From NCBI GenBank assembly GCA_015233405.1, contig JADFXT010000010.1:41578-105577 (forward strand): DNA of 64,000 bases, written 5' to 3'. The stretch is from Candidatus Omnitrophota bacterium. GTDB taxonomy: Bacteria > Omnitrophota > Gorgyraeia > Zapsychrales > Zapsychraceae. Shown piece by piece: positions 11,294 to 58,360 of this stretch. Each line of letters starts with the position of its first letter. The stretch's first letter is position 1. The notes beneath the pieces were generated by a model. That model worked only from the letters and a program-made list of their open reading frames with translations. It was not told the origin of the DNA and searched no databases. The position numbers and the translations under genes were made by a program.

Positions 11294-11296
11294 AAA

Positions 11297-11370
11297 CAGA
11301 CTACGGACAATAGACCAGAGACTTTAGTGTGCATTTAGTCTCTAGTCTATTGTCGATAGTCTTCGGTCTG
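11297..11370. repeat. Heptad-periodic (nn[T/G]AGAC) palindromic element, intergenic copy; likely bidirectional terminator
   Basis: Left arm cagactacggacaatagaccagagact and right arm agtctctagtctattgtcgatagtcttcggtctg are near-complementary. The inner 18 bp has 1 mismatch. It sits between convergent genes. Confidence 0.7.
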
Positions 11371-17286: not shown

Positions 17287-17313
17287 AAGTGGCCATCCCT
17301 CGTTTTTTTTGTT

Positions 17314-17390
17314 GTCATCCCCGCGAAGGCGGGGATCCAGGGTCCGCTGGTTCTGTGCAATTCTGGATTCCCGCTTGCGCGGGAATGACA
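17314..17390. repeat. Double-hairpin palindromic element, copy A (GTCATCCCCGC..GCGGGGATCCAG ... CTGGATTCCCGC..GCGGGAATGACA)
   Basis: Two perfect GC-rich hairpins. It lies between the addA-like and addB-like genes. A spurious track ORF (17200-17391, MSFPRKRESR...) is its translation. Confidence 0.85.
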
Positions 17391-17445
17391 AATAAATAAG
17401 GGGAGAATAATAGAGAAATAATGGAAATAGTAATGAGGAAACTAA

Positions 17446-21952: not shown

Positions 21953-22078
21953 GTCATTCCCGAAATTTTTTGTCGGGAATCCAGAGGCAATCGAAGCCTC
22001 GGGATCACGGGTAACCTTTAATAAAAGTAAATCTTTTCTGAAACCCTGGATCCCCGCTTAAAAATTGCGGGGATGACA
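21953..22078. repeat. Double-hairpin palindromic element, copy B (opposite orientation, expanded centre)
   Basis: gtcattcccg..cgggaatccag at the 5' end and ctggatccccgc..gcggggatgaca at the 3' end. This is the reverse arrangement of copies A, C and D. It lies 115 bp upstream of the 3301-aa ORF. Confidence 0.8.
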
Positions 22079-22193: not shown

Positions 22194-25100
22194 ATGACTT
22201 TGGGGACGCCAATCTACAATAAAAGGATATTTAAGGTAATCACCTTAAGCGTATTAATAAGCTTTACGTTTAATTGCGTGATTCCCCCGCAGTTTGCCTC
22301 TGCCCAAACCGCTCCTGTTTTACCAGCCCAGCAACTTATTACACTCACAGACGCCTATTCTCCGGTTGTTATGAAAGGTTTGAAACTTTATCCGGATAAC
22401 CCGCTTAAGTTTGATTTTATTTTAGACAAAGGCGAAGCCTTTGCTCCAAATGACCCTGCTCGGCCCACGGCAGAGCAAGAGTCACAATTAAAAGAAGAAG
22501 CCACTCGTCTTATTAAATATTTTCTGGCGTCTTTAACAACTCCAGAAAAAGATATGTGGGTCAACTTAAACCCCAAAGAGCCGGACCGGATTGTCCCCCA
22601 GAAATTCGGTGAGACGGAAATGGGCCGTGACCTTTTGGCGCAGGATTATTTACTCAAGCAGATGACTGCTTCCTTGATGCATCCCGATGGAGACGTCGGC
22701 AAAAAGTTTTGGAGTAAGATTTATCAGCAGGCTTATGAGAAATTCGGCACCACTGATGTCCCGGTGGATACCTTAAACAAAGTTTGGATTGTTCCGGAGA
22801 AAGCTGTCGTGTATGAGAATCAGAACACGGCATTTGTTGTCCAGGCAAAACTGAAGGTGATGTTGGAGGAGGATTATGAAGCGTTAGAACAGACAAAAGA
22901 CCATAGACAAGAGACTATAGACCAGCCTTCGGCTGAAAAAAAGTCTAGGGTCTCTGGTCTATCGTCTATGGTCATTCGTCAAATTATCCTTCCCGTCCTT
23001 GAGAAAGAAGTCAATGAAGGCAAAAATTTCGCACAGTTGCGGCAGGTTTACCATTCCTTGATCCTTGCCACATGGTTTAAACGGAATTTAAAGGAAAGTT
23101 TGTTAGGGCGTAAGTATGTGGACCAAAGCAAAACTCCAGGCGTGAATATTGAGGACAAGAACGAAAAATTTAAGATCTATGACCGATACCTTGAGGCGTT
23201 TAAAAAAGGCGCGTATAACTATATTAAAGAAGAATACGACCCTGCGACCCAGGCTATTGTTCCCAAAAAATATTTCTCCGGCGGTATCACGGCGCTTAAC
23301 CTCGACAGTGCCATGACGGTTACGCATAACCAAAGCCTCGCGAAAACATTGTTAACTGCTTTGCTGATTACCGTTGGGGTGAATCTTTTTGTCGGCTGTG
23401 AGACCCAACCGAATTATAACCAGCGTCACTCAAAAACCACGCATCAGGTGCGACAAAAACCCGTACGCATAAATCATACAATTCCCCAAGCGCAGCCGGT
23501 AGCGACGGATAGTGTCGTGAGCGAATTTTTGTGGTCCCAGCCGACCGCGGATTCCTTGAACCTTTATGAACAGAAATTTCGGAGTCAAAATCCAAATTTC
23601 GCGAATCAATCTCTTGACCAACAAGTGGTCTCATTTGTGGAATTTATTAAATCCCCGACGGGGTTGGGAGTTTCTTATTCGATGGCTTTGACAAGAACGG
23701 AAGAGCTGGCGCAGCAAGGAGGGAATCTGGATTCTGTTGTGGCGACAAAGCAGGCCGTTTGTTTGGGTTTTACGCGGTTAATATATTTTTTGGGGAAAAA
23801 ATTGGGTTTGCCAAATCAGATATATTCCGTCGAAGGGCAGAAACATGTTATTAATGTTTTTTCTTTATTAAGAAAAACGGAAGACGGTCAGTCTCAAGAT
23901 GGTTATGCGCTTATCGTTGACGCTTCGACGAATAAATCGGGAGGGTTTATCAGGACGGACGTATTTAAGTTTGATGAAAAATATGGAAAGAACGGGGATG
24001 CTTATGCGTTAAGACCAGGCCAACAATTGCCCATGGATAATTATAATTTTAATGCGGCGGGCAATGTCCGATATGAAATCATAAAACCGTTTGAACCTGG
24101 CGCCTATAATCTGACGGAAGCTTTGGCGCGGGTGCATAAAGATCAAGAGAATGTTCAGCAAATATTTTCTGAAGCGAGCAAGTGCTTTGAAAATAGGCAA
24201 TATCCTGAAGCCATTGCCAAATATCAAGCGGCTATTCCCCTGGTTGAAGCCCTCAGATCTCGTTTGGTGGAAAAATCGTGGTTATTTTCTTCAATTATAA
24301 AGAATTTTCAAGAGGTGGTTCGTTCTCTGGATGAAATGAGAGAGAATGCTTCAACCAATATTTCTGCCGCCGAGCATAATCAGCAGAATGCCGGATATGC
24401 CCAGAATTCTTCGCAGTCGCAAAACACGATGAGTATCACTCTTGAATCTGAACAAGACAAGCAGGACTTTCAGGAAATATCAGTTAAGAAACAAGAAATA
24501 GTTGCTTTGATTAATACAGGAGTCCGTTTCGCAGAAAATGGAAAATATCGGGAATCCGCCGGGTATTTTAGTAAGGCTATCGGAATAAGCAGAAGTTTGG
24601 AACAATTGGGTTTGGCGAAAAAATATCCTGATATGTTGGGTCCCCTTCGTCAGACAGCGGAAAGAAATTTGGAACAGGTTAAAAATCTCGGAGGATTAAG
24701 CCAATATACGCCATCTTCGCAAACTTTTCGAGATGCCGCGCGGTATGCGCAAAGAAATATTCAAAATCCGCAAGACATAGACGCCGCCATGATGACGAAG
24801 TGGGTGAGTGCTGTTGCCTTCGCCGGAGCGCTCGCTTTTATGAATATGCAGCCGGCAACGGCGCAAAATGTCAATTTGGCCGGGGTCATGGGTTCGCAGA
24901 TTGCCACGAGTGCAGTAGCTCGGCAAGCTGTAAGTCCTGCGGAACTTGATACTCTTTTTGTAGGGCTTTCTAAAGGGGACCTAGCCGCCTATTCTAAATT
25001 AATGAATCTTGCTGGCACAAAAAATCCTTCTGTTATATCTGGCTTACTGAATCAAGCTTCGCGGGGAAGTATTGATGCTATAGGAATTTTGGGTCATCAT

Positions 25101-28100
25101 GCGACATCGATTTCTGGAATTAAAGAGGGATTAAAAAATGTTAATCCTCAGCCTCTTCTCGACGCTGATCCTGAGGGAAGTAAGAGAACCGTTGATGCTT
25201 TGTACACACTAGCGCTTTATGATAATGCCAAGGCTTTGTTTGTTTTGGTTCATTTAGCCACTCAGAAAGTCAATACGCTTGCGGCAGAGGCTTTGAAGCA
25301 ACTTTCGTTTCAAGAGGGTCAGGGGATTATGGCTCAAGAGGCGATAAAAAATATTGATCTTAAGCCGCTCATTGAGAAGGCGAGTTATGGAGATAAGAAA
25401 GCCATTGAGATGTTACGGCTCTTTGCCGAGACTGGAATTGTTCCGGCAGCTCGGTCAGCAATAAAAAATTTGAATGTTCAATTTTTTATTGATAAATCTT
25501 CCCAAGGCAGCGATGAAAATCTTGATTTTTTGATTTCTCTTGCCGATGCGGGTAATCTTGCCGCCCAGGAAGCTTTAAAGATTATGGACCCTCATGTTTT
25601 TGTGGAAAAAGTATCTCCAAACAATCCTGGATCAATATATTCCTTAGAACAACTTGCGTTAAATCAGAATCAAATAGCGTTATCAGCGATTAATCTTTTT
25701 GCCCGTCAAGGTTATAAAGAAGCGACGACTTCTTTGCAGCTCATCGTTGGTAGTATTAACGAACTGCACGGTTCTGCGGATAGCATACGTTTTGCAATTG
25801 TCAATAACTCTAGTCCTGTGGATCTTTATACGATGATCGTTTCCGCTCAGGATGAGGTTTTGGCGTTTCCGTCTACGTTTACAGGGCTTTTTAACCGGAT
25901 GATGGAAGGGATGAAAGCGCAGGGCATAAGCATAAGCGGCGACGGGATTCTTAATCAGGCTAATTATTATAAATTTAGAACGTTTTTTAAGCTTGCAGTA
26001 AATTTTAACCGGCTCAATGATTTCTTAGGAACGCTGCCTTCTGAGGAAGAAAAGACTGCTTTGCTCGAGAAATTTGTCAAAGGATTGGATAAAGAAAAAG
26101 ATGTTTTAGCTCAGGCCACGGTGGTAGCGGATGTTTTTGGAATGATAAAAACAGATGCGACGCTTTTTCCTCTGATGCGGCAAATGGTCAAAACTGAATT
26201 TGAGCGGACTCTTCAAGATGGATCTAACCGTTATGCAGAGGTCATTTATGGTTTGCTAACGATATTGTTTGCGCAAAATACTGATATCAATGATTCTTTG
26301 TTTAAAAGAGTAGCTGACGATTTCCAATTCCCCGATGTCAGCGTACTTCATCAAGCAGATTTATTCGATGCGAATGGCATCTTTCGACAAGTCCAGTATT
26401 TTTATGAAGATGAAGATGGGGATGCTTCTTTTAAGAATCTTTTGAATACCTATAAAAATAAGCCGAATTGGAAAATTATTGATTTTTTCAATTATATTCT
26501 TATCAAAGGAACGTTAAAAGGCCGGACAATCGAAATTTATGCCAATAAACCTTTTTTGGACTCAGCGGACCAAACGACCAATGCCCAAAATGAGCTAGAT
26601 AATTTTATTCAAAGAGAAGGGCTTGGTGTTTATATGGCGATTCACCGTGGGCATAGTTATCATGTGCAAAAAACCATCGATCGATTAGGATCTTCTCTTA
26701 AATTTGTCTTTTTAGGATCTTGCGGCGGATCCAATCGCATGAACGATGTGTTAAAAAAATCTCCGGGCGCTCAAATTTTAGCGACAAAAGGCATCGGTAC
26801 CGCCACGATCAATGACCTTTTGTTAAAAATGATCAATGATTTGTTGTTAAGCGGACAAGATGTTAATTGGCATGCTTTTCGATCCAATCTGGCAAAGAAA
26901 GAAGAATTCAAACGTGCTGCGGAGTTTATTCATTATATATTCCCGGATGAAAACACCGGATTTCTTTTTATCAGAGCTTATATGGAACTGTTGAAGCGTT
27001 TTGGTCTCGAGTATCCTATTGAGGGAATAGATTTCAACAAGTTAAATCGTGATCATTTTAATAAGGTCGCGCGATATGTGGAGAATGAAATTAAGTATAA
27101 TCAAGAACAAGGCCCCGTCATCGTTTGGACGCAAGAGCCTGACTCTGCACAAAAGAAAAACAGCAATGTCCCCGCAGCCTCTAATCAAATCAGCAACTCA
27201 GATTACCAGGCTATTGTAGCCCTGATCAATTCTAATTCTCTTGATTACAGCAGTAATCCGGTCTTAAACCCAAATGACCCGACGAGATTGAGTGTCGTTA
27301 TCAACGTGATTTCCGATCTGGCATTGAATCATCCTGATGCTCAAGTCAGATATAAAGCTTTGAATATGTGGAGGTATTTGTCGGAGAAATATCCGAATAA
27401 TGCTCCCCTGCAGTCCCCCCAATTACAAAATGCCGGCGGAATTCAAGGCGGTGACCATGCGATGATGGCAAGCCGATTGAAGACAGTCCTGAAAATGTCG
27501 TCTTTGGTCCTTATGTCCTCCTTACCGATGTGTTTTAATTTTCAAGGAAAAATAGCAACCAGTTCTGCCGTTTTTAATCCACCGCCCGCGGTTCTCATGG
27601 AAGAAAATAGGCTTGCTGCGGCGATCAAATCTGCGGATATGGGCACGCTTCACTATTCTCAACAAATAACCGACGCCCATACGTCATGGCTTATGAGCAA
27701 AAAAGATACTAGCGGTCGGCCGTATGTTTCTATCTGGAAAGAAAAGTCCGACGGTATTCTTAGTGATTATAAAGCAGGCCGGATGAGCGCGGACAGTGCC
27801 GCCGAAGCACAGAGGCAGTTGATGGACCAAATAAGCAAAAAGGTCAAAAGCTGGATGGGCCATAATACAACTACTGTTGGTTTGGATAAAGCCATAGTAA
27901 AGAATACAATTGCGAAATCAAAGTTTTCTCAAGTCGGTCTAAATAGCATCGCGATTTTAGAGAGGTTACTTAAAAATGATATTTTAGAAAATGTTTCGTC
28001 AACAGAGGTGCGTTTAAAATCAAATAATGACCTCAGCAGAGATGCTGTTCTGAAAATTGTAGGTCAAAATAATATTGATCAAGTTTGGAGTATTTTATTA

Positions 28101-31100
28101 CAGTCCTTCGAAGCAGGCGATTGCCTGACGCATACTGAGAACGCATTTGCTATCGTCCACGGTGATTTAGGCTATCCGATTCAGTTTGTGCATGTGACGC
28201 AGGAGCAAGATGGACATCCTACGGAGCATTTTGTTCCTTTGCTTACGACCCTTGATGGCAGAAATGTTTATTTGGAGTTCACATCGCCGTCGGTCAGCCC
28301 AAGGTTTGTCTTGGAAAAGGCGTACACTTTTACGCCCACGTCTGAGGGCATTGTCGGGATGCTTAAGGATCCGAATAGAGAAGGCTTGTCTCGTTATGCA
28401 AAAATAACGATCATTTCGACGCAACGATTTATCGCGAGTAGATATTTTCTTATAGGTCAAGCCGAGTATCTTGCCGGACTGAATGAAGAGAATCAGATGC
28501 ATTTTGTCAACGCTGAGTCCAATTTTAAACAATCGATTGCAACCGATCCGACTTTTGCTGAAGCCCATTACTATCTTGGTTTGGTCCAAAAGAATTCTTT
28601 TCGGTATGAAGCCGCCATCCGCAGCCTCACCAAAGCCATTAACCTTGACCCGACCAATGCCAATTATTATCGCGAGAGAGGTTCGGCTTATGATAGGTTA
28701 TGGCAGCATGAGAAAGCTTTGCGTGATTTGAATAAAGCCCTTCAAATTAATCCCAATGATAAAGAGGCTATAAAGCTATCGGATGAAATAGAGTCGAGAA
28801 ACAATAAAAAGCAATCTTTTCAATACAATATAGACACATTAAAAGCCCTTGCCCGTCGAGGAAGTTCCACGGCCACAGCCTTGCTGGCCGGTGAGATCGA
28901 TTGGAATAATTATGGTATTCCTGCGGCGTTGGCTTTAGCCGGTATAAATTTTGACCAGGTTGCCAGAGAATCCCAAAGATCGTCGTCACCCACTTATGAG
29001 GTCGGCAACGCCAGAGAAACTGTGAATGATTATTTACAGGGTCCCGATGCCGCCATGATGGCTCGCGGGGATTCTTTGACGAAGAAAGAAGCTGCGAGTA
29101 TTTTAAAGAAAATTACAGCGGCTTATCGTGCAGGAGATCGTCTAGAGAATGAAACTTTAGGAGAATATCTTAACAGGATCTTACAGACCAGGGAGTTTTA
29201 TCGTTATGTTGCCGCACATCCTTTGAGCACACGCATTCAAAGTTTCTTGAAGGAGCCTAAGAAGTCTTTAAAAGAAGCCGGATGGGGACTCACCATGTCC
29301 TTAGTGAAGGCGACCATGCCGGTTGATGATCCGACGATCGTTTATATTCTACGAGATAATGCTCAACTATTCTTGTCTCAGGTGAAATCAAATATTTTTA
29401 TGTGGTATGCGTTTTTAGCGCTCTCCGTGAATAACGGAAAAGCAAAGTTAAAAAAATTGCCTAACAAGAAAAATGAGATTCCCAACGGAAAAGATGCCGA
29501 TAGAGCGATGATGACAAGAGGGTTCCGGAATCTTTTCGTTCCTTTTGCTTTTGTTGCGGCAGCAACGGCTCCGGTGTTATTGAATCCGTCGATCACGTCG
29601 GCAGAAGAAATGCAAAAATCAGGTTCGACCTTAAATGAAGATGCCATACTCGCGAATGATGGAATCCCCATTGGGATTAAGGCGATGGAAGAGCTTAAGG
29701 GTGCATTTAACGCCACTTCGCCTGATTATACAACCATCTCAGTTCTTAACTCTCCCCAAAATTACAACAAGGTTTTGAGGATCCTTATCATGCAGGTCAT
29801 GCGCAAACACCAGCCGAATTCTCCTCAGTGGCAAAGGGCGTTTGATATTGTAAGGTACATGTCTGGGCAGGATTCTCTGGCCATTGGCTTGGCGCTTTCG
29901 AAAGTTTTATCGAGCGAAAATACAACTAATGCTGGCGCATCTGTCCAAACGCCTAGAGCTCTTTCTTTGGAAGACCAAAAGGTCGCCGATGTTATTAAGG
30001 ATTTGGCCCTTCGGTTTAAGTCATCTGCCTCGACGGTAGATGATTTTACCGCTCTAGTGATGTCGTGGAAAGATAAGGGGGACTCATTAAAATTATTTAT
30101 GAGCGCCCGACGCAAGGAAATGGATAGTCTTAGAAAAGACATCGATGCCGGTAAACCTGAAGCTCAAGAGGCGGCAAGAGATATTGCTCTTAAAATAAGG
30201 CTTAAAACGATTGCGGAATTTTTCCATGATGTGGATGTTGTTGGCATCGAGGAAGCCATGTTGTTTGGCGCTGCGACGTGCCATACGTTAGCCGAAATGA
30301 ATTATATTCTTCTTCGGGCCGTTGGATTCAAGGAAGACGAGGTTTCATTTGTCGCGCTTAGATCCGGAGTCCTTCATTATTTTCATTGGTTCTGTATGGT
30401 CAGGTTTCAAGATCAGAATAAGGCTTTTATCACAGATGCCGCCTTTGGTAAAACCACACCCATGTTTACTGTTCAGGATGCTTACGATATTTCTTCCGAC
30501 GGTGGTTTGATCCTCAAATCAGACAGAACGAACATTCCAATGGAGGTGCAGACTTACCCGAATATGATGCCTTTAAGACTCGAGGATTTCATCAATGAAG
30601 GGGGTGATGTTTATACCGGCAGGGAGTTTATAACTATTGATGGAAAGTATAAATTCGACATTGCCATAAAATATTTTACGCGGGCCATTGAAGCGAATCC
30701 TCATTCCGCTGAGGCCTACATGTGGAGGGCCAAGGCTTATCTCGGACTTGCTGGTAACGATCGCGATTTACAAATGAAAGCCAGGACCGATCTTCTTAAG
30801 ACCATCGAAATAAACTACCGCTTGATTCCAAGGGTCAGGGATTTATTAAGTCCTTATGTGTGGAATTGGACTGCGTTTTTATTTGTAGGTCATGATTCGA
30901 GCTTTCCTTCTGATTCAGTCAAAGACATCGATAGTTCGCTGGCCCAAGGCGAATTAGCCATGAACGTCGGCGACAATCTTAAAGCCGTTGGATTTTTCCA
31001 AAGTGTTCTTAAGAATGTTGCGGAATTAAAACAGTCCAACCCGCAGCTCACAGACGAGCAGCGTGTTTTATTGAATGGGCTTGCGAATGAAGCGCTGGCA

Positions 31101-32099
31101 CATGTAGAATGGATGAAAAGATATCATATAAGTATTTCTTCTGATGGGAAAATGATGTTTCATCCGCAAAAGCCTGTGAAAGTCAAAGGCAAGAAAAGCT
31201 CCGACGGGGCGATGATAACGAAGGCGTTACATTTAACAGAAGGGCAAGAGATCACTATTCCCTATCAAGGAAAAACGGTTAAGCTCATTCCCGTAAGGAT
31301 TTCGGATTATGATATCGTTGTGGCAAAGGGCAAAGTGCTGGCCACTCCAGGGGCTTTTAAATTATGGATAGAGGGTAAAGGTATTATTGAGAATAGTATT
31401 TTTACTTTCCAGGAGAAAGCGGATGCGATATTAATTGAATCTTTCAAAATTAATACCAGTAATTATCAGGATACGGGCGATGGAATCGGCCGCGCCATCA
31501 TGGATGTTATCGTCGCTATCGGCAAGAGGGTGGAAGTGGATCAATCCGCTAATTACGGTTTGCTTCGGCTTCTTTCTTTTTATCAAGCGGACAATAGAAA
31601 AGTCACGTTTGACGGAAAAGAATTTCAGGATATCCATTGGTTTGAGGACTACGGTCCGATCAGAATCGTTATGTCGGATGGCCGGACTGCCAAGTTTGTT
31701 ATCAGTAGCGACGGTAAACATTTTGAATTTCAAACAGGAGACGGTAGCCAGGTGTCTTTGAGCATGCTTGAAGTTCTCAATCAAGACGGATATGTTCGTA
31801 TTCCGGGAATCACAACACCGTTTCAAGTTTATTTATCTAAAAAGATCGATAAAATAATCATTTCCGCGCCGACGGATGCAGCGATGAGCACTAGGACAAC
31901 AGACGTCGGTGGTATTGATTTAAATCCGGAAAATTTGAGCATTGAAAGTAAAGGCGAGAAGATAAAGTTTGATGCCAAAAAATTTGAGAATATGGAAATT
32001 GACGGCTTGACGCCGGTGATTTTTAATATGGTCCCGCTTGCCCCGGCACAGGTCGAGATGCTGTTAGGGTTTAAAGATGGTGAGCAAGGAAAGGTATAG
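22194..32099 (+). CDS. Giant modular protein G1 (3301 aa): signal/anchor, conserved N-domain, six variable modules (three transglutaminase-like plus TPR, one HEAT-like), conserved C-tail
   Basis: Uninterrupted 9.9-kb ORF with RBS AAGGGGGG and ATG 22194. The N-terminal region and the last roughly 70 aa are homologous to the 46919-52612 ORF. D-x-A-M junction Met codons lie at 23313, 24789, 27462, 29055, 29508, 31212 and 31884. TPR sequence example: AEAHYYLGLVQKNSFRYEAAIRSLTKAINLDPTNANYY. Confidence 0.85.
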   Translation: MTLGTPIYNKRIFKVITLSVLISFTFNCVIPPQFASAQTAPVLPAQQLITLTDAYSPVVMKGLKLYPDNPLKFDFILDKGEAFAPNDPARPTAEQESQLKEEATRLIKYFLASLTTPEKDMWVNLNPKEPDRIVPQKFGETEMGRDLLAQDYLLKQMTASLMHPDGDVGKKFWSKIYQQAYEKFGTTDVPVDTLNKVWIVPEKAVVYENQNTAFVVQAKLKVMLEEDYEALEQTKDHRQETIDQPSAEKKSRVSGLSSMVIRQIILPVLEKEVNEGKNFAQLRQVYHSLILATWFKRNLKESLLGRKYVDQSKTPGVNIEDKNEKFKIYDRYLEAFKKGAYNYIKEEYDPATQAIVPKKYFSGGITALNLDSAMTVTHNQSLAKTLLTALLITVGVNLFVGCETQPNYNQRHSKTTHQVRQKPVRINHTIPQAQPVATDSVVSEFLWSQPTADSLNLYEQKFRSQNPNFANQSLDQQVVSFVEFIKSPTGLGVSYSMALTRTEELAQQGGNLDSVVATKQAVCLGFTRLIYFLGKKLGLPNQIYSVEGQKHVINVFSLLRKTEDGQSQDGYALIVDASTNKSGGFIRTDVFKFDEKYGKNGDAYALRPGQQLPMDNYNFNAAGNVRYEIIKPFEPGAYNLTEALARVHKDQENVQQIFSEASKCFENRQYPEAIAKYQAAIPLVEALRSRLVEKSWLFSSIIKNFQEVVRSLDEMRENASTNISAAEHNQQNAGYAQNSSQSQNTMSITLESEQDKQDFQEISVKKQEIVALINTGVRFAENGKYRESAGYFSKAIGISRSLEQLGLAKKYPDMLGPLRQTAERNLEQVKNLGGLSQYTPSSQTFRDAARYAQRNIQNPQDIDAAMMTKWVSAVAFAGALAFMNMQPATAQNVNLAGVMGSQIATSAVARQAVSPAELDTLFVGLSKGDLAAYSKLMNLAGTKNPSVISGLLNQASRGSIDAIGILGHHATSISGIKEGLKNVNPQPLLDADPEGSKRTVDALYTLALYDNAKALFVLVHLATQKVNTLAAEALKQLSFQEGQGIMAQEAIKNIDLKPLIEKASYGDKKAIEMLRLFAETGIVPAARSAIKNLNVQFFIDKSSQGSDENLDFLISLADAGNLAAQEALKIMDPHVFVEKVSPNNPGSIYSLEQLALNQNQIALSAINLFARQGYKEATTSLQLIVGSINELHGSADSIRFAIVNNSSPVDLYTMIVSAQDEVLAFPSTFTGLFNRMMEGMKAQGISISGDGILNQANYYKFRTFFKLAVNFNRLNDFLGTLPSEEEKTALLEKFVKGLDKEKDVLAQATVVADVFGMIKTDATLFPLMRQMVKTEFERTLQDGSNRYAEVIYGLLTILFAQNTDINDSLFKRVADDFQFPDVSVLHQADLFDANGIFRQVQYFYEDEDGDASFKNLLNTYKNKPNWKIIDFFNYILIKGTLKGRTIEIYANKPFLDSADQTTNAQNELDNFIQREGLGVYMAIHRGHSYHVQKTIDRLGSSLKFVFLGSCGGSNRMNDVLKKSPGAQILATKGIGTATINDLLLKMINDLLLSGQDVNWHAFRSNLAKKEEFKRAAEFIHYIFPDENTGFLFIRAYMELLKRFGLEYPIEGIDFNKLNRDHFNKVARYVENEIKYNQEQGPVIVWTQEPDSAQKKNSNVPAASNQISNSDYQAIVALINSNSLDYSSNPVLNPNDPTRLSVVINVISDLALNHPDAQVRYKALNMWRYLSEKYPNNAPLQSPQLQNAGGIQGGDHAMMASRLKTVLKMSSLVLMSSLPMCFNFQGKIATSSAVFNPPPAVLMEENRLAAAIKSADMGTLHYSQQITDAHTSWLMSKKDTSGRPYVSIWKEKSDGILSDYKAGRMSADSAAEAQRQLMDQISKKVKSWMGHNTTTVGLDKAIVKNTIAKSKFSQVGLNSIAILERLLKNDILENVSSTEVRLKSNNDLSRDAVLKIVGQNNIDQVWSILLQSFEAGDCLTHTENAFAIVHGDLGYPIQFVHVTQEQDGHPTEHFVPLLTTLDGRNVYLEFTSPSVSPRFVLEKAYTFTPTSEGIVGMLKDPNREGLSRYAKITIISTQRFIASRYFLIGQAEYLAGLNEENQMHFVNAESNFKQSIATDPTFAEAHYYLGLVQKNSFRYEAAIRSLTKAINLDPTNANYYRERGSAYDRLWQHEKALRDLNKALQINPNDKEAIKLSDEIESRNNKKQSFQYNIDTLKALARRGSSTATALLAGEIDWNNYGIPAALALAGINFDQVARESQRSSSPTYEVGNARETVNDYLQGPDAAMMARGDSLTKKEAASILKKITAAYRAGDRLENETLGEYLNRILQTREFYRYVAAHPLSTRIQSFLKEPKKSLKEAGWGLTMSLVKATMPVDDPTIVYILRDNAQLFLSQVKSNIFMWYAFLALSVNNGKAKLKKLPNKKNEIPNGKDADRAMMTRGFRNLFVPFAFVAAATAPVLLNPSITSAEEMQKSGSTLNEDAILANDGIPIGIKAMEELKGAFNATSPDYTTISVLNSPQNYNKVLRILIMQVMRKHQPNSPQWQRAFDIVRYMSGQDSLAIGLALSKVLSSENTTNAGASVQTPRALSLEDQKVADVIKDLALRFKSSASTVDDFTALVMSWKDKGDSLKLFMSARRKEMDSLRKDIDAGKPEAQEAARDIALKIRLKTIAEFFHDVDVVGIEEAMLFGAATCHTLAEMNYILLRAVGFKEDEVSFVALRSGVLHYFHWFCMVRFQDQNKAFITDAAFGKTTPMFTVQDAYDISSDGGLILKSDRTNIPMEVQTYPNMMPLRLEDFINEGGDVYTGREFITIDGKYKFDIAIKYFTRAIEANPHSAEAYMWRAKAYLGLAGNDRDLQMKARTDLLKTIEINYRLIPRVRDLLSPYVWNWTAFLFVGHDSSFPSDSVKDIDSSLAQGELAMNVGDNLKAVGFFQSVLKNVAELKQSNPQLTDEQRVLLNGLANEALAHVEWMKRYHISISSDGKMMFHPQKPVKVKGKKSSDGAMITKALHLTEGQEITIPYQGKTVKLIPVRISDYDIVVAKGKVLATPGAFKLWIEGKGIIENSIFTFQEKADAILIESFKINTSNYQDTGDGIGRAIMDVIVAIGKRVEVDQSANYGLLRLLSFYQADNRKVTFDGKEFQDIHWFEDYGPIRIVMSDGRTAKFVISSDGKHFEFQTGDGSQVSLSMLEVLNQDGYVRIPGITTPFQVYLSKKIDKIIISAPTDAAMSTRTTDVGGIDLNPENLSIESKGEKIKFDAKKFENMEIDGLTPVIFNMVPLAPAQVEMLLGFKDGEQGKV
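22899..22973. repeat. Heptad-periodic (TAGAC-type) palindromic element inserted in-frame in G1
   Basis: 75 bp (25 codons). Arms of catagac/aagagac/tatagac units and their complements surround a central hairpin cagcc-ttc-ggctg. Same family as 11297-11370. It encodes the linker DHRQETIDQPSAEKKSRVSGLSSMV. Confidence 0.7.
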
Positions 32100-32141
32100 T
32101 TTTGGACAATTAATTATTTTGTCATCTGTCTTTCTTTTGTT

Positions 32142-32250
32142 GTCATCCCGGGCGAAGACCCGGGATCCAGGATATTAAAATCATTTGCTGGATTCCCGCT
32201 TCCGCGGGAATGACAGTGAAGCGAGGCGGGAATGACAGAATGGGATGACA
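32142..32250. repeat. Double-hairpin palindromic element, copy C plus trailing half-copies
   Basis: gtcatcccgggcgaagacccgggatccag ... ctggattcccgcttccgcgggaatgaca (to 32215), then the partial repeats gcgggaatgaca and gggatgaca. It starts 43 bp after the G1 stop and abuts the stop of the minus-strand gene at 32259. Confidence 0.85.
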
Positions 32251-33481: not shown

Positions 33482-34111
33482 ATGAAGAAAATCTTGCATA
33501 TCATCGCGACTCCCCGCGATCAAGAATCGCGCACGCTTAAAATCTCCAGGGCTTTTTTGGAAGTTCTTAAGAGAAAGAATCCGGATTATCAGATAGACGA
33601 GTTAAATCTTTTTGAGGAAGAATTGCCTTCCTTGACGGTCAAGACTGTTGCGGGTAAATATACGCTGATGAGCGGAAAATCTCTTGATGCGGCACAGAAA
33701 GAGGCTTGGGCCGGCGTTTTGAAACATATTGAGCGGTTTTTGTCTGCTGATATTTATGTGATCTCAACTCCGATGTGGAATTTCAGTATTCCTTATGTTC
33801 TTAAACATTACATCGATGTGATTTTTCAGCCGAGTTATTTATTTCAATATACAGCCAAAGGCCCCGAGGGTTTGGCCAAAGATAAGAAAATGGTCGTCTG
33901 CACGTCCCGTGGAGGTGATTATAGTGAAGGCACGGCCGCGGAAAGATTTGATTATCAGGACCCTTACCTTAAAATGGCGTTTGGATTTGTTGGCATAACG
34001 GATATTGCTTTTATTCACGCACAGCCGATGGATGCGGCGGGCGCGGAAGTTCGGGACCAAAAACTTAAAGACGCTATTTTGACCGCGTCTCGTATCGCAG
34101 AAGAGATATAA
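33482..34111 (+). CDS. azoR: FMN-dependent NADH-azoreductase / flavodoxin-like quinone reductase
   Basis: Co-linear with AzoR: PMWNFSIPYVLKHYIDV, YTAKGPEGLAKDKKMVVCTSRGG, FGFVGITDIAFI. Confidence 0.8.
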   Translation: MKKILHIIATPRDQESRTLKISRAFLEVLKRKNPDYQIDELNLFEEELPSLTVKTVAGKYTLMSGKSLDAAQKEAWAGVLKHIERFLSADIYVISTPMWNFSIPYVLKHYIDVIFQPSYLFQYTAKGPEGLAKDKKMVVCTSRGGDYSEGTAAERFDYQDPYLKMAFGFVGITDIAFIHAQPMDAAGAEVRDQKLKDAILTASRIAEEI

Positions 34112-39446: not shown

Positions 39447-39455
39447 TTAGTTTTT

Positions 39456-39570
39456 CCTCCCCCTTGATGGGGGAGGCGTTCCGCCGCAGGCGGGACTGGT
39501 GGGGGTGAGGGGACAACAAGTTCTAAAATAATTGTCCCCCCTCCCTTAACCCTCCCCACAAGGGGGAGGG
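39456..39570. repeat. GC-rich multi-hairpin element (four consecutive stem-loops)
   Basis: cctccccc-ttgat-gggggagg. gttccgcc-gcag-ggcgggac. ggggacaa...ttgtcccc. ccctcccc-acaa-ggggaggg. Strongly GC-skewed against the AT-richer background. Two minus-strand track ORFs are its translations. Confidence 0.75.
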
Positions 39571-39586
39571 GAAGGATCTCAAATCT

Positions 39587-43934: not shown

Positions 43935-43999
43935 ATTGGTTGGTAAACCTTTGAACGCCCTCTGGATGGATGAGAAAAAATATTTTTCTATTACGTCCT

Positions 44000-44075
44000 G
44001 TCATCCCCGCAATCTTTAAGCGGGGATCCATGATGGGGAAAAATGTTCTGGATTCCCGTTTTCACGGGAATGACA
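44000..44075. repeat. Double-hairpin palindromic element, copy D
   Basis: gtcatccccgcaatctttaagcggggatcca ... ctggattcccgttttcacgggaatgaca. Same orientation as copies A and C. Confidence 0.85.
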
Positions 44076-46816: not shown

Positions 46817-46918
46817 TAGTTTTTTCAATCCTAATTCCAACCTTAGAAATATTTGTTTTTTTCTGCCGTATATTCCATACTTATACTACTTAAATCAATC
46901 ATAAAAAAAGATATTTCT

Positions 46919-49900
46919 ATGATAAAAAGAACTTTATCTGCATTAATCCTTATAACTTTTATTACTACAGTTATTATGCCGCCGGGCTATGCCCAGAGCG
47001 TAACATTGCCAACTCCAGGTGTGATGGTCAATCCATCAGTAGCCTATGTCCCAGCACTGTTGCGTGGGATGACGCTACATAAGGACAATCCATTTCAGTT
47101 TGATTTTATCGTCGACAACGGCCAAAGCGGGCTTCAAGGCGAAGCATTAAAGAAAGAATCGCAGCGTTTGGTCAAATATTTCCTCGCATCCATGACCGTT
47201 CCGCAGAATGATTTGTGGGTAAACCTTTCTCCGGCTGAAAAGAATCGTATCGTCCCCGACGCGTTAGGCAAAACTGAATTAGGCCAGGATTTATTGGCTC
47301 AGGATTACATTTTAAAGCAACTGACTGCCACATTGATGTATCCGGAAGCGGAGTTAGGCAAGAAATTTTGGGATCGCATATATAAGGAAGCAAAAGAAAA
47401 ATACGGTGTCACTGATATTCCGACAGATACTTTTAATAAAGTCTGGATTCTGCCTGAATCCGCGACGATCTATGAAAACGGCGCGACGGTGTATGTGGTT
47501 GATGCAAAATTGAAGGTGATGTTGGACCAAGACTATCAAGCGATTTCGAAAACTGTAGGGGCGGGGTCTCCCCGCCCGGATGATGATGGGCGCGGGAACC
47601 GCGCCCCTACGAAGATCATTAAAGAAGTTATCCTTCCCGCCATCGAGAAAGAAGTAAACACCGGCAAAAATTTCGCTCCACTTCGCCAGATCTATCATTC
47701 GCTCATCTTAGCCAAGTGGTATAAAGAGAAAGTCCGCAACAGCATTCTTTCCAGCGCCTACATTAACCAGAACAAAGTCTCTGGTATCGACGAGAATAAT
47801 CCGAAAGCCAAAGAAGAAATTTACGCGCAGTACATGGAAGCCTACAAAAAGGGCGTCTATAACTATATGAAGGAAGAGTATGACCCCAAGACCCAACAGA
47901 TCACGCCTAAGAAATATTTCTCCGGCGGGTTTAAGGACCAGGCGATGACTATTAATCGGACAAATGAGATAAAAATAGTCGAAGCGTCGGTTGTGGGGAG
48001 CAATTACACCATTTCGCTACGCATAGACCCGCAAAAGAAGCATGGCGATTCGGCAATGTCTTCTAAACAAAAATCTGCGTCTGCTATTCCGGTTGTGTTA
48101 TTGGTTGGAAAGCCAGGGGCGGGGAAGACAAAAATAGGCATGCAAATCAGTAAAAAACTTGGGCCTAATGTGTTCCATCTGTCGATGGGAGAATTCATAA
48201 GGTCCCAGATGCCGCATAAAACGCCGCTCACCCATGAACAGCGTCGAGATATTTATAAGCGTTTGACGGAATACTTAAAAACTAAGCCGCATATATCTTT
48301 GTTTCTTTTTGATAATAATCCCTACGGCAGCGACTCCTATGACGCTTTACAGGATTTCCTAAATCAAGGGAACTTCGAACTGGTGAAGGTCATCAATATT
48401 GATGTGACGGATGAAGCGGCTCTAAGCCGACAAGAGTCGAGAGGAAGGATAGATTCTATGGGAGTCTCTTTCCAGAATCGGCTGAATTATTACAATAATA
48501 ACCTCCAAAAAAATGTCCCTGACCAGATCAAGAAGTTCGCCCAAGAAGGCCTTGTTCAAAACATAGATAACAATGAAAATGATAAAGGAAAAAGCGCGTT
48601 GGTAACTCTTTTTGAAGCCCTTTCTCCTCTTGCGCTTGAGGGATGTGAAAGGCTTGTCCGTCGGATGATTCCTCAATTACAAGCGCTCATTGCATCAGAG
48701 CAGGCGGTTGTTGTTAATGAATTGGCGCAAGAAATCATGAAAGAAGGGCTGTCTAAACTAGAAGAAAGGCTCGCCTTAAAATATCCCGATGTTCTAAAAG
48801 AAAATTTGCTTGTGCTTGAGGCTGAACATATTATTGCTGATCTAAAAAAACCTGCTGACCATGCCATGACAAGTGACGTGAAGGCTTTACTGGAATCGGC
48901 AAAGATAGCTGATAACAGTACTCTAAAAAAGATTTACGACGAGCTTAACAAGATGCCTAATGGCGCAGCGAGGGCGATTTACGACATACTTTATAAGACG
49001 ACAAGCATGGATTTGGTAGAGGCCAATGATTTGGTTGAAGCATCCAAAATAGCCGCGAAAGAATTTTTTACTGGTTTTCAAAACTGGATGAATACCAAAG
49101 GCCAAGACCCTAAAAAGAAATTTATTTTGATGTTCGCTACAGGGAAAAGCCCGGAGATGGCGTATAAATTTATTGAGGATTATCTGCACCAGGATTGGAC
49201 AAATGCCGACGTACGCAAAGGTTTAATAGCCCAAGGCATTGACCCGGATCGAAAACCAGACATGACCAGGGTCATTTCGTTTCATCTGGATACAATCATA
49301 GCTCAAAAAAGAGGAGAATATTTTGCCTTTTCCAATATTGTCAATAAATGGGATGACAGTTTCGGAATTCCTAAAGACCAGCGTAATTTCTTTCATGGTG
49401 ATGTGATTTTATCCGATGATGGAAAATCTGTGCGGCAGATGACCGAAGAAGAGTTTTCAAAATTGCGTCAAGATATCCAGAAAAATGGGCTTAAAGTCAA
49501 AGATTATGTCGCCGGAAAACTGGATAAAGAAAAATTTGGCGTCCAATATGCGTTCTTTGAGGCGCTGAAGCTTCAGAATAAGATCATGACGGAAAAATTA
49601 AAAAGTTTAGGCGGCGCGGACATTGTTTTTGGCAGTACTGGCCCGGCCAATGACGGTTCAGGGCATATTGCTTTCGTGGAATCGGAGAGCTTAGATGAAA
49701 TGGAAGCTTTTATAGCAGAGGCGAATCATCATATTTTAGCCGGACAGGCTTCTCAAGGTCGTGGTTATCAATCCCTGATGGGCAAGACAGGGATTGCTTC
49801 GTTCTCGCTCTCAGACATTACGCAGAACAAAGATGCAAAATTGATCATGATCGTCCTCGACAATAAAAAAAGGACCACGGTTAAAGAGGCCATCGAAGGA

Positions 49901-54566: not shown

Positions 54567-54700
54567 TGGGACTAAAATATAATTTTAAGAATAAGATTTC
54601 TAATAAATTTCTAAAAAAGAAATAATAAATCTTGGAAAGTCTGATATAATTCAACATACGTTTAAAATTGCTGAATAAGAGGGGGAAAAGGAGAACTTTG

Positions 54701-55219
54701 GTGACAAAGCTTGATACGAAAGCGTTGGACAAAGTTATCGCTCGGTATGAAGGCAAGCCTGGCAGGCTCCTGAGTATCCTCGAAGATGCCCAGAAATTAG
54801 ATGAGCATCAATATCTTTCCACTTCGGCATTGGAATACGTCAGCGAAAAGACCGGCATTCCCCTTTCCCGCATTTATTCCGTCGTGACTTTTTACGCATT
54901 CTTCAGCTTAAAGCCCCGAGGAGACCATTCGATTACCGTTTGTCGCGGCACCGCTTGCCACACACGTGGTTCCAAAAAAATGCTGGACTATTTAAAACAG
55001 ATCTTGGATTTGAAGGAAGATGAGTCTTCCGGCCAGCAGAGCAAGGTTTTTTTAACGACCAAAGACAATCAATTTACCTTGATGACGGTCGCCTGTTTCG
55101 GACAGTGCGCGTTGGCCCCTGTCGTCGAGATTGATGGGACAATTTATAGTAATGTGACCGAGCGCAAGCTTAAAGGTCTTATTGATAATATCCGCCGCAA
55201 AGGAAAAAATAAGAAATGA
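54701..55219 (+). CDS. NuoE/HndA-like [2Fe-2S] subunit of NAD(P)-linked [FeFe]-hydrogenase
   Basis: GTG start 7 nt after AAGGAGA (the track gives TTG 54668). Thioredoxin-like 2Fe-2S motifs: VCRGTACHTRG and VACFGQCALAPV. Confidence 0.85.
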   Translation: MTKLDTKALDKVIARYEGKPGRLLSILEDAQKLDEHQYLSTSALEYVSEKTGIPLSRIYSVVTFYAFFSLKPRGDHSITVCRGTACHTRGSKKMLDYLKQILDLKEDESSGQQSKVFLTTKDNQFTLMTVACFGQCALAPVVEIDGTIYSNVTERKLKGLIDNIRRKGKNKK

Positions 55220-58350: not shown

Positions 58351-58360
58351 AGGAGATCGG

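What the first reader, a model, noticed from the sequence alone, without database searches (positions are those of the whole stretch)
22899..22973. Two different palindromic repeat elements sit in-frame at the same linker position of the two giant paralogs
Both paralogs carry the conserved blocks KLKVML[ED][EQ]DY[EQ]A and I[RK][QE][IV]ILP[VA][LI]EKEVN, and the insertions lie between them. In G1 the linker DHRQETIDQPSAEKKSRVSGLSSMV is encoded by a 75-bp TAGAC-heptad palindrome (22899-22973). In G2 the equivalent linker VGAGSPRPDDDGRGNRAPT is encoded by a GC-rich double hairpin (47555-47610) with composition unlike the surrounding gene. So the two paralogs acquired unrelated palindromic elements independently at one permissive surface loop, without breaking the frame. 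This resembles what is established for Rickettsia palindromic elements in coding genes. It could also mark a recombination or structural hotspot used to swap the region downstream.
Basis: partly seen in the sequence, partly recalled or inferred. Interest (0 to 1): 0.65.

Follow-up and report, generated by a model that had tools for sequence, protein, structure and literature searches.

The report
Palindromic repeats inside a protein loop
Two giant secreted proteins of an uncultured Omnitrophota bacterium each carry a different selfish palindromic DNA repeat, read in frame, in the same floppy loop. Relatives sampled from many Omnitrophota genomes carry such repeats in that loop too, much like the palindromic elements known from Rickettsia genes.

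Summary
Both palindromes are real. G1 22891-22980 folds at -38 kcal/mol (z -6.5) and G2 47555-47610 at -45.8 kcal/mol (z -5.6). They lie at the same place in two paralogous N-terminal domains, a low-confidence loop between two helices.

The G2 element is a GTAG-tagged REP doublet (REPIN-like, 75% GC in a 43% GC gene). The same two stems occur intergenically in another Omnitrophota genome.

The G1 element is a palindrome of AGACNNN heptads. A second copy is intergenic in the window (11296-11370). The same element, giving almost the same peptide, sits in the inter-domain linker of an unrelated glycosyltransferase.

The pattern generalises. In 98 homologous linkers from 79 Omnitrophota loci, strong palindromes are about 33 times denser than in other coding DNA, and about as dense as in intergenic DNA. 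At least five repeat families are involved.

The G1 element is shared with homologues in other genomes, so it is inherited rather than recent. No empty linker exists.

Best reading: dispersed REP-like repeats that survive in a permissive hypervariable loop, analogous to Rickettsia RPEs. The hotspot in a multi-copy domain and the heptad palindromes are new variants of a known kind. A recombination or regulatory role is not supported but not excluded.

The parts
22194..32099 (+). G1, giant ORF (3301 aa). It has a signal-peptide-like N-terminus, the conserved N-domain, a variable TPR-containing middle and a conserved C-terminal module of about 84 aa.
22314..23300 (+). G1 N-domain (about 330 aa). 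It belongs to an Omnitrophota multi-copy family with no Pfam match and no PDB fold match.
22891..22980 (+). AGAC-heptad palindromic element read in frame, G1 residues about 233-263. Left arm 22892-22923 (AGACNNN x5), central mini-hairpin CAGCCttcGGCTG, right arm 22949-22980 (GTCT heptads). The heptad that falls in frame reads GAG rather than TAG, which avoids a stop.
46853..52612 (+). G2, giant ORF (1919 aa). N-domain, an adenylate-kinase-like P-loop, a methyltransferase domain, and the shared C-terminal module.
47000..47950 (+). G2 N-domain, paralogous to that of G1 (44% identity).
47555..47577 (+). GTAG-tagged REP unit A: GTAG + GGGCGGGG tct CCCCGCCC.
47588..47610 (-). GTAG-tagged REP unit B on the minus strand: GTAG + GGGCGCGG ttc CCGCGCCC. 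With unit A and the spacer GGATGATGAT it forms a REPIN-like doublet that encodes VGAGSPRPDDDGRGNRAPT.
11296..11370 (.). Intergenic copy of the AGAC-heptad palindrome family. It lies between convergent genes, 17 nt from the stop of the SurA-like ORF. It shares ATAGACCAGAGAC with the G1 element.
17312..17391 (.). Intergenic doublet of a third palindrome family (TGTCATYCCCGC...GCGGGAATGACA). The same family is found in frame in the homologous linker in other genomes (L078, L013, L043, L060).
21953..22077 (.). TGTCAT-type REP doublet just upstream of the G1 start.
32141..32236 (.). TGTCAT-type REP doublet (plus an extra unit) 45 nt after the G1 stop.
43999..44074 (.). TGTCAT-type REP doublet, intergenic.

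Best explanation
The two inserts are in-frame copies of dispersed, REP-like palindromic repeats. They sit in a hypervariable, structurally tolerant loop of a multi-copy N-terminal domain specific to Omnitrophota.

Shown:
- The genome and its relatives carry at least three families of small palindromic repeats: AGAC-type heptad palindromes, GTAG-tagged GC-rich REP doublets, and TGTCAT..ATGACA REP doublets.
- These normally lie a few bases after stop codons, between unidirectional or convergent genes.
- The same families also occur, translated, inside the linker between the 'KVMLEEDY' helix and the 'IxREIxIPxxEKEVN' helix of many N-domain paralogues. They occur occasionally in other loops of the domain and in linkers of unrelated proteins.
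- The loop is the most length-variable part of the domain and is predicted to be disordered.

Inferred:
- The repeats spread by the usual REP/REPIN route. For the GTAG type this is probably a RAYT-type Y1 transposase, or recombination with other copies. For the heptad type the route is unknown.
- Copies that break the frame or the fold are purged.
- With about 94% of the sampled DNA lying in open frames of at least 90 codons and dozens of N-domain paralogues per genome, this loop becomes a major refuge.
- Elements are then inherited with the gene (G1 with L002 and L003), decay (L044 and P0055 keep only one arm), are replaced (at least five types within the G2-like clade), and are sometimes homogenised between paralogues of one genome.
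- The encoded peptide is a passenger: a flexible spacer with no required sequence.
For: - Palindromes are real and far beyond chance.
- They occupy the same alignment position in the two paralogues.
- The centre of the site is a coil with pLDDT below 50, between helices 185-197 and 212-235 of the model.
- The linker is the most length-variable segment of 97 aligned domains, with sd 6.9 aa against 3.6 or less elsewhere.
- Only 36 of 4753 linker pairs are alignable, while in those pairs the 300-nt flanks are 57-82% identical at DNA level.
- Of the first 58 linkers mapped, 21% fold with z < -3, against 2.6% of flanking coding controls (Mann-Whitney p = 3e-6). In the full set the figure is 25% of 97.
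- Ungapped palindrome scan of 1.16 Mb (123 hits, 16 in shuffles): 15 in 10.9 kb of linker (1.37/kb), 45 in 1083 kb of other ORF space (0.042/kb), 63 in 61 kb of intergenic DNA (1.03/kb).
- Heptad-periodic palindromes: 9 in linkers, 8 intergenic, 0 in other CDS.
- Dispersal of the G1 family: the intergenic copy at 11296-11370 and 30 metagenome stretches, all heptad arrays.
- The same element sits in frame, encoding KTIDDRPETIDQESKSQVSSLESLV, between the two Rossmann domains of a GT4 glycosyltransferase. Most homologues of that enzyme lack the extra residues.
- Dispersal of the G2 family: both stems are intergenic in L012:8669-8719. There are 53 IMG/VR stretches with the exact REP. GTAG doublets with other stems and in two reading frames occupy the linkers of L058, L020/L033, L065, L011, L009 and P0088.
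- Intergenic copies lie 0-30 nt after stops and never between divergent genes, the pattern described for REPs (PMC3733652).
- Other loops of the N-domain carry REP-derived peptides in element-rich genomes, and other CDS carry REP heads. This argues for general permissiveness rather than a dedicated site.
- Insert start points scatter over about 20 nt, as read from the sequences.
- Intragenic GTAG/CGTC REP dimers encoding 20-30 aa are documented in other phyla (PMC3733652).
Against: - No empty linker was found in 98 loci plus 175 proteins; the minimum is 20 aa. G2's linker is 27 aa, of which 19 are element-encoded. A simple insertion into a native linker is therefore not directly shown for this domain.
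- G1's linker has the modal length. Without gaps it shares ID, SG and SS with the common non-palindromic 'GTD...SS.VVREI' linker class. It could be partly native.
- Element density in the linker equals or exceeds the intergenic density, which pure tolerance does not predict. Copies related by descent inflate the count, however.
- No RAYT or other transposase is in the window. Only one GTAG doublet occurs in 64 kb. Multi-copy status within this genome is therefore not shown for the G2 element.
- The source genome was not found in any collection, so genome-wide counts are lacking.
Confidence: 0.78

Rival explanations
1. The linker is a recombination or gene-conversion hotspot. Palindromes at a fixed site between conserved flanks would promote exchange between paralogues. 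This could swap the downstream cargo or diversify a surface loop, with the elements either selected for that role or a by-product of it.
For: - The four within-genome paralogue pairs whose linkers align best have linker identity 17-21 points above their flanks: L017/L072 99% against 82/73%, L020/L033 92% against 72/70%, L054 pair 87% against 71/66%, L005/L021 86% against 70/68%. Across all ten same-genome pairs the mean excess is only about 8 points.
- Linker content does not track flank similarity. G1's nearest flanks (L001, L004) have different linkers, and AGAC heptads occur in both the G1-like and G2-like clades.
- G1 and L002 are 76% identical upstream and 66% downstream.
- The family has conserved N- and C-terminal modules around a hypervariable middle.
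Against: - The conserved domain continues for about 110 aa after the site, so a crossover there would not swap the cargo alone.
- The domain flanks are equally diverged from nearly all homologues (protein identity 60-68%). This gives no sign of frequent recent exchange.
- Heptad low complexity inflates linker identity.
- The same elements occur in other loops and in unrelated proteins.
- Insertion offsets vary by about 20 nt.
Confidence: 0.1
2. The hairpins are selected as nucleic-acid structures, for example an mRNA or DNA hairpin that pauses, processes or stabilises the transcript of very long genes. The peptide would be incidental.
For: - Palindromic DNA of unrelated sequence recurs at one position in 20-36% of paralogues.
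- P0088 has a GTAG doublet with the same frame and the same GATGATGAT spacer as G2 but entirely different stems, each still self-complementary.
- REPs elsewhere act on mRNA stability (PMC3733652).
- The G1 centre has a cUUCGg-type mini-hairpin.
Against: - Most linkers (about 65-80%) have no significant structure.
- On the sense strand, mismatches are A.C 23 against G.T 6. The antisense strand folds better (-37.0 against -31.4 kcal/mol), the opposite of what selection on the mRNA predicts.
- There is no terminator-like T-run and no Rfam family.
- Arm decay in G1 and L002 is about what neutral divergence from a perfect palindrome predicts, given 76% flank identity.
- Half-elements persist (L044, P0055).
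Confidence: 0.06
3. The palindromes arose in place in a weakly constrained loop, by chance inverted repeats, heptad slippage plus template-switch 'quasipalindrome correction', and are not copies of mobile repeats.
For: - G1's linker has the modal length and shares in-register residues with non-palindromic linkers.
- Heptad arrays can grow by slippage; there is a 21-nt direct repeat and a duplicated 14-nt unit in L002.
- No target-site duplications were seen.
Against: - The same 13-22-nt cores occur in an intergenic copy in the window, in 30 metagenome stretches and in a GT4 gene.
- The exact G2 REP stems occur in another genome and in 53 IMG/VR stretches.
- A 75% GC element in a 43% GC gene is hard to generate locally.
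Confidence: 0.04

Closest known systems
Rickettsia palindromic elements (RPE-1, RPE-4/6) inserted in frame in protein-coding genes (Ogata et al. 2000, from my own knowledge; discussed in PMC3733652 and PMC1779305)
   Same: Both are small palindromic repeats found in intergenic DNA and also inside ORFs. They keep the reading frame, encode 20-30 extra residues at tolerant surface or linker positions, and come in several families per genome.
   Different: The phylum, sequence and architecture differ. The present case concentrates on one loop of one highly multi-copy domain family, with turnover of at least five element types at that loop, rather than scattering over many unrelated housekeeping genes. 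No sequence comparison with RPEs was made.
GTAG-tagged REPs, REP dimers and REPINs with their RAYT transposases (PMC3733652; PMC3116915; PMC3333891; PMC8266576)
   Same: The G2 element has the defining GTAG tag, an 8-bp GC-rich stem with a 3-nt loop, and two units in inverted orientation that form a larger hairpin. Intragenic dimers encoding 20-30 aa are described for Opitutus terrae and others. Intergenic relatives lie just after stop codons between unidirectional or convergent genes.
   Different: Only one doublet occurs in 64 kb, and it is intragenic. No RAYT was seen in the window. The host is a 43% GC Omnitrophota genome, whereas identical REP units turn up in contigs of about 60% GC.
Cyanobacterial STRR short tandemly repeated heptanucleotides (Mazel et al. 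1990, from my own knowledge) and heptameric SSRs (PMC4692102)
   Same: A 7-nt repeat unit, dispersed copies, and many heptad variants between genomes.
   Different: The G1 family consists of imperfect heptads (a conserved AGAC core plus 3 variable bases) arranged as an inverted pair that forms a long hairpin. The sequence differs from STRR1-3. Membership was not tested.
Prokaryotic MITEs inserted in frame (review PMC10969869) and PARCEL palindromic coding repeats of Mollicutes (PMC2996958, abstract only)
   Same: Short non-autonomous or palindromic repeats that can be translated as part of host proteins.
   Different: There are no terminal inverted repeats flanking a distinct core and no target-site duplication. 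The elements are not tandem amphipathic modules.

Membership tests
GTAG-tagged REP / REPIN (for the G2 element) | GTAG tetranucleotide at one end of each unit | tested here: met
   GTAG at 47555-47558 (+) and at 47610-47607 (-)
GTAG-tagged REP / REPIN (for the G2 element) | Short stem-loop next to the tag (stem 5-13 bp, loop 2-20 nt; Table 1 of PMC3733652) | tested here: met
   Two perfect 8-bp stems with 3-nt loops (I2 and I3)
GTAG-tagged REP / REPIN (for the G2 element) | Two units in inverted orientation that fold into a larger hairpin | tested here: met
   23-nt arms at 83% complementarity with a 10-nt spacer; -45.8 kcal/mol
GTAG-tagged REP / REPIN (for the G2 element) | Many dispersed copies in the same genome | tested here: inconclusive
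   Only this doublet in the 64-kb window. The same stems are intergenic in L012, and the exact units occur in 53 IMG/VR stretches. The rest of the source genome was not available.
GTAG-tagged REP / REPIN (for the G2 element) | Cognate RAYT (Y1 HUH transposase) in the genome | not testable with these tools
   No transposase among the 30 further ORFs of at least 150 aa sent to Pfam, nor in G1 or G2. The source genome was not found.
Rickettsia palindromic elements (RPE), as a way of working | A palindromic repeat present both in intergenic DNA and in frame inside ORFs | tested here: met
   G1 family: 22891-22980 in a CDS and 11296-11370 intergenic. Across the loci, 9 linker and 8 intergenic heptad palindromes. 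GT4 case.
Rickettsia palindromic elements (RPE), as a way of working | Insertion at a structurally tolerant, surface-exposed position | tested here: met
   Coil with pLDDT below 50 between two helices. Most length-variable segment of the domain. This rests on prediction only.
Rickettsia palindromic elements (RPE), as a family | Sequence homology to the RPE-1 to RPE-8 consensus sequences | not tested
   No RPE sequences were compared. The host is a different phylum, so this is treated as an analogy only.
MITE | Terminal inverted repeats with flanking target-site duplication | tested here: not met
   The whole element is the palindrome. No direct repeat flanks either insert (reading).
STRR-type heptanucleotide repeats (for the G1 element) | Tandem 7-nt period | tested here: met
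   AGAC at 7-nt spacing five times, GTCT three or more times. Lag-7 periodicity test.
STRR-type heptanucleotide repeats (for the G1 element) | STRR consensus units (CCCCAGT, TTGGTCA, CAACAGT) and a cyanobacterial host | tested here: not met
   The unit is NNAGACC/AGACCAK and the host is Omnitrophota. The STRR consensus units are from memory.

The most novel reading that the evidence does not exclude
The loop may be more than tolerant. It could be an actively used landing pad where hairpin-forming repeats are preferentially captured and exchanged between the dozens of N-domain paralogues, by gene conversion or hairpin-targeted recombination. That would give Omnitrophota a built-in way to diversify an exposed loop, or the expression, of their giant secreted proteins. 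The points in its favour are element density in the linker at or above the intergenic level, within-genome homogenisation of linkers, turnover of at least five element types within one clade, and the absence of any empty site.
Probability: 0.12. Interest if true: 0.75.

Novelty: new variant of a known kind. Interest (0 to 1): 0.55.

Why it matters
In-frame palindromic repeats are textbook for Rickettsia and have been noted sporadically for REPs. Here one loop of one uncharacterised domain family, present in over a thousand Omnitrophota proteins, acts as a recurrent refuge for at least five repeat families.

This gives a natural experiment on how selfish DNA and protein structure accommodate each other in genomes with almost no intergenic space. 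It defines a heptad-periodic class of palindromic repeats that is widespread in metagenomes.

It also has practical uses:
- It warns annotators that many 'linker' peptides in these giant proteins are translated repeats.
- It flags the linker as a likely site of MAG misassembly.
- It marks a safe insertion site for tagging these proteins.

Tried and rejected
- Rfam scan of the whole window: no family.
- Terminator and promoter scans at both sites: nothing at the elements.
- Foldseek of the N-domain model against the PDB: no match with E below 0.08, so the domain's function stays unknown.
- Pfam: nothing on the N-domain, and no transposase or RAYT in the window.
- Finding the source genome failed. 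The best GTDB relative is 64% identical, there was no BLASTN overlap with the metagenome hits, and an exact-protein look-up of ORF 33482-34111 was not on record. Genome-wide copy counts were therefore impossible.
- A strict heptad detector (exact 4-mer core three times on both arms) found only 4 elements. It was replaced by a lag-7 periodicity test on all palindromes.
- The first regex mapping of linkers missed 40 of 98. It was replaced by two flanking HMM blocks.
- The first palindrome threshold (score 16, mismatch -2) missed both target elements and was relaxed, with a shuffle control.
- Covariation analysis of the hairpins was abandoned. There are too few orthologues, and heptad arms pair in several registers.
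- tBLASTn with the rest of G1 and G2 found no orthologous giant proteins, only the shared C-terminal module. Orthology of G1 with L002 and L003 therefore rests on the N-domain alone.
- A chance origin and an intrinsic-terminator role were considered and rejected.
Full report
**What is at the coordinates**

The window is 43.6% GC. It encodes ordinary chromosomal genes: a T2SS ATPase, an AddAB-like helicase/nuclease pair, HtrA, PPDK, a sigma-70 factor, an ammonium transporter and an FeFe-hydrogenase cluster.

There are two giant ORFs. G1 is 22194-32099 (3301 aa, with TPRs). G2 is 46853-52612 (1919 aa, with an adenylate-kinase-like P-loop and a methyltransferase).

Their first 370 or so residues are paralogous, at 44% identity. 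This region has a signal-peptide-like start and no Pfam match. Both also end in a shared module of about 84 aa at 39% identity (also seen in other family members).

The two inserts lie at the same alignment position, between KLKVML..DY.A and I[RK][QE][IV]ILP..EKEVN.

G1 carries a palindrome with arms 22892-22923 and 22949-22980, 32 nt at 81% complementarity.
- The arms are AGACNNN and NNNGTCT heptads, five on the left.
- Three heptads make seven codons, which accounts for the 21-nt direct repeat.
- It folds at -38 kcal/mol, z = -6.5, and 0 of 200 shuffles fold as well.

G2 carries GTAG-GGGCGGGG-tct-CCCCGCCC, then GGATGATGAT, then the inverted GTAG-GGGCGCGG-ttc-CCGCGCCC at 47555-47610.
- It folds at -45.8 kcal/mol, z = -5.6.
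- Its GC is 75% in a 43% GC gene.

**Organism and domain family**

The N-domain has over 1,100 relatives, and nearly all the named ones are from Candidatus Omnitrophota/Omnitrophica MAGs. More than 580 stretches match in GTDB representative genomes. Several copies occur per genome; for example, four or more loci come from JAJDCA01 and three from DATDQB01.

The best identity to G1 or G2 is only about 64-70%, so the source genome is not in the collections.

An AlphaFold2 model (mean pLDDT 76) shows:
- a helix ending about 10 residues after the DY motif;
- a coil with pLDDT below 50 at model residues 198-211, which is G1 RQETIDQPSAEKKS;
- then a long helix starting at RVSGLSS.

So the centre of the palindrome encodes a disordered loop and the arm ends encode helix termini. 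Foldseek found no PDB relative.

**The linker across the family**

I mapped 98 linkers in 79 Omnitrophota loci plus the window, using two flanking HMM blocks.
- The linker is the most length-variable segment of the domain. It runs 20-64 aa, with sd 6.9 aa against 3.6 or less elsewhere.
- Only 36 of 4753 linker pairs can be aligned. In those pairs the 300-nt flanks are 57-82% identical at DNA level.

Its DNA is often palindromic.
- Of the first 58 linkers mapped, 21% fold with z < -3, against 2.6% of equal-length flanking coding controls (Mann-Whitney p = 3e-6).
- In the full set the figure is 25% of 97.

An ungapped palindrome scan of all 1.16 Mb gave 123 hits, against 16 in block shuffles:

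| Compartment | Hits | Size | Density |
|---|---|---|---|
| N-domain linkers | 15 | 10.9 kb | 1.37/kb |
| Other ORF space | 45 | 1083 kb | 0.042/kb |
| Intergenic | 63 | 61 kb | 1.03/kb |

Many of the 45 hits in other ORF space look like terminators caught inside stop-to-stop frames.

**The element families involved**

1. GTAG-tagged doublets built like G2's but with different stems. They occur in two of the three possible reading frames; the third would read TAG. Carriers are L058, L020/L033, L065, L011, L009, P0080/P0123 and P0088.
2. TGTCATYCCCGC...GCGGGAATGACA units or doublets, which give peptides such as VIPAKAGIQ...GNDI. Carriers are L078, L013, L043, L059, L060, L067 and L025. This family has four intergenic doublets in the window, two of which bracket G1.
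3. Heptad palindromes with various cores:
   - TCAG: L005, L021, L023, P0124, P0149.
   - GTCAC: L023 (second domain), P0118, P0109.
   - TAGAT: L004.
   - GCCAAGA: L075, L054.
   - AGAC: G1, L002, L003, P0121, P0130.
4. By peptide signature, further classic repeat types: VILSAAKDL, VVASEAKQS..SRND, PTRGHV..VSPSRLP.

Heptad-periodic palindromes were found 9 times in linkers, 8 times in intergenic DNA and never in other CDS of this sample.

**Are the two elements members of dispersed families?**

G1 family:
- An intergenic copy lies at 11296-11370, between convergent genes. It shares ATAGACCAGAGAC with the G1 element.
- A 19-base pattern common to G1, this copy and L003 hit 30 metagenome stretches. 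All are AGACC-heptad arrays, and several are palindromic.
- One (L090/L091) lies in frame in a GT4 glycosyltransferase, exactly between its two Pfam domains. It encodes KTIDDRPETIDQESKSQVSSLESLV, close to G1's KDHRQETIDQ...SRVSGLSSMV.
- In 40 GT4 homologues that segment is 30-34 aa in 28. It is 42 aa in the two carriers and 90 aa in a third with a nested insert. Other homologues carry other repeat-like inserts.
- This is the nearest thing to an empty-site control.

G2 family:
- L012:8669-8719 is intergenic and in another MAG. It carries both G2 stems in swapped order.
- The exact REP units occur in 53 IMG/VR stretches from contigs of about 60% GC, 13 of them as doublets.

Intergenic copies of all three families lie 0-30 nt after stop codons, between unidirectional or convergent genes. 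None of the 13 with genes on both sides lies between divergent genes. This is the distribution reported for REPs (PMC3733652).

**History of the two inserts**

G1 insert:
- L002 and L003, two paralogues in MAG JAKQLT01, carry the same AGAC-heptad palindrome at the same site and frame as G1. L002 also shares the central CCTTYGGCTGRAAAAAAGTCT. L044 keeps only the left arm.
- G1 and L002 are 76% identical in both the linker and the upstream flank.
- The element is therefore inherited. Its present 81% arm complementarity is about what neutral decay from a perfect palindrome predicts.
- In every carrier, the heptad that falls in frame reads GAG, ATG or AAG rather than TAG. The copies are thus filtered or shaped for an open frame.

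G2 insert:
- P0088 is 57% identical to G2. It has a GTAG doublet in the same frame with the same GATGATGAT spacer but different stems. This is either common origin with stem turnover or a family trait.

Independence:
- The G2-like clade (64-70% identity) shows at least five element types among about 15 members.
- AGAC heptads occur in both the G1-like and G2-like clades.
- Occupancy of the loop is therefore repeatedly renewed. The G1 and G2 inserts are independent of each other.

**Tolerance or targeting?**

For tolerance:
- Other variable loops of the N-domain occasionally carry REP-derived peptides: VIPAKAGIQ at G1 residues 84-94 in L059 and L043, and SLRGSEATEAIS, VIASA and NVLVGDP near residues 318-325.
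- REP heads also occur in other CDS, including the variable parts of giant proteins.
- Insert start points scatter over about 20 nt after the DY codons.

For something more:
- No empty linker exists, and G2's 19 element-encoded residues sit in a 27-aa linker. The elements therefore replace earlier linker sequence, which may itself be decayed repeat. The common ...ARIQN..NxLGSQ linkers, for instance, resemble VIPAKARIQNKNDINALGSQ.
- Linker density is at or above the intergenic density, although copies related by descent inflate the count.
- The four within-genome pairs whose linkers align best have linkers 17-21 points more similar than their flanks.

Against a functional mRNA hairpin:
- Most linkers are unstructured.
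- There is no terminator or Rfam signal.
- Sense-strand mismatches are A.C 23 against G.T 6 (p = 0.002). The antisense strand folds better, -37.0 against -31.4 kcal/mol.

**Comparison with what is known**

G2's insert meets the structural definition of a GTAG-tagged REP dimer or REPIN. Intragenic dimers encoding 20-30 aa are already described, for example in Opitutus terrae and in Rickettsia RPE-4/6 (PMC3733652; REPINs PMC3116915). Multi-copy status in this genome and a RAYT could not be tested.

G1's insert works like an RPE or REP, but it is a heptad-periodic palindrome. I found no description of that class in two literature searches. Cyanobacterial STRR heptamers are the nearest recollection, and the unit sequence and host differ. 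The two preprints on Omnitrophota giant genes mention neither the N-domain family nor palindromes.

**Verdict**

These are translated copies of dispersed palindromic repeats in a permissive hypervariable loop, and that loop is a hotspot in the Omnitrophota genomes sampled.

It is a new variant of a known kind of phenomenon. Interest is moderate, about 0.55. About a 12% chance remains that the loop is an actively used recombination or landing site, which would be considerably more interesting.

Noticed in passing
window 17312-17391, 21953-22077, 32141-32236, 43999-44074: Four intergenic doublets of a third palindromic repeat family (TGTCATYCCCGC..GCGGGAATCCAG ... CTGGATTCCCGC..GCGGGAATGACA). 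Two of them bracket the G1 gene. The same family is translated inside the homologous linker in other genomes (L078, L013, L043, L060).
   Followed up: partly
window 31854-32096 (G1) and 52355-52594 (G2): G1 and G2 share a C-terminal module of about 84 aa (39% identity, motif VGGID[LM]N...KKFE.M.IDG..PVI). The module also ends other N-domain proteins (L004, L005, L016, L023, L030). The family therefore has conserved N- and C-termini around a hypervariable middle. Its function is unknown.
   Followed up: partly
15 linker palindromes (window 22892-22980, 47555-47610; L002, L004, L005, L020, L021, L023, L054, L064, L065, L075, L078): On the coding strand, arm mismatches are A.C 23 against G.T 6 (p = 0.002), and the antisense strand folds more stably as RNA. 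The cause is unexplained. It could be selection to weaken the mRNA hairpin, coding constraint, or an orientation bias of the elements.
   Followed up: partly
L090:5124-6353 (and L091), metagenome contigs Ga0114945_10000647 / Ga0137796_10002207: A GT4 glycosyltransferase carries the AGAC-heptad palindrome in frame between its two Rossmann domains. Homologues P0180, P0187, P0189, P0193 and P0206 carry other repeat-like inserts at the same inter-domain linker. This is a second 'landing loop' in an unrelated protein family.
   Followed up: partly
L110-L162 (IMG/VR contigs): The exact REP units GTAGGGGCG[GC]GGTYYCC[GC]CGCCC occur in 53 stretches of contigs classed as viral, with about 60% GC. Some contigs hold 3-4 copies. 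Either these REPs travel in phage genomes or the contigs are bacterial.
   Followed up: no
L080, L082, L083, L094, L101, L102, L105, L107, L109: Long tandem arrays of AGACCAT/AGACCAG heptads with no inverted partner. Several lie inside open frames of 200-860 codons. Taxa unknown.
   Followed up: no
window 39441-39580: A cluster of three strong GC-rich hairpins (CCTCCCCC..GGGGGAGG, GTTCCGCC..GGCGGGAC, CCCTCCCC..GGGGAGGG) between the PPDK gene and the sigma-70 gene. They are unlike the three repeat families.
   Followed up: no
window 46853-52612 (G2): G2 fuses the secreted-type N-domain to an adenylate-kinase-like P-loop (aa about 415-550) and a class I SAM methyltransferase (aa about 1660-1810). 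These are odd cargo for a protein with a signal peptide.
   Followed up: no
L059, L043 (G1-equivalent residues 84-94); L059, L067 (~318); L065 (~325): REP-derived peptides (VIPAKAGIQ, SLRGSEATEAIS, VIASA, NVLVGDP) occur in three other variable loops of the N-domain in element-rich genomes.
   Followed up: partly
window 54668-60127: A NuoE-like, NuoF-like/GltD-like fusion and FeFe-hydrogenase large-subunit cluster. This suggests an electron-bifurcating hydrogenase and fits an anaerobic Omnitrophota lifestyle.
   Followed up: no
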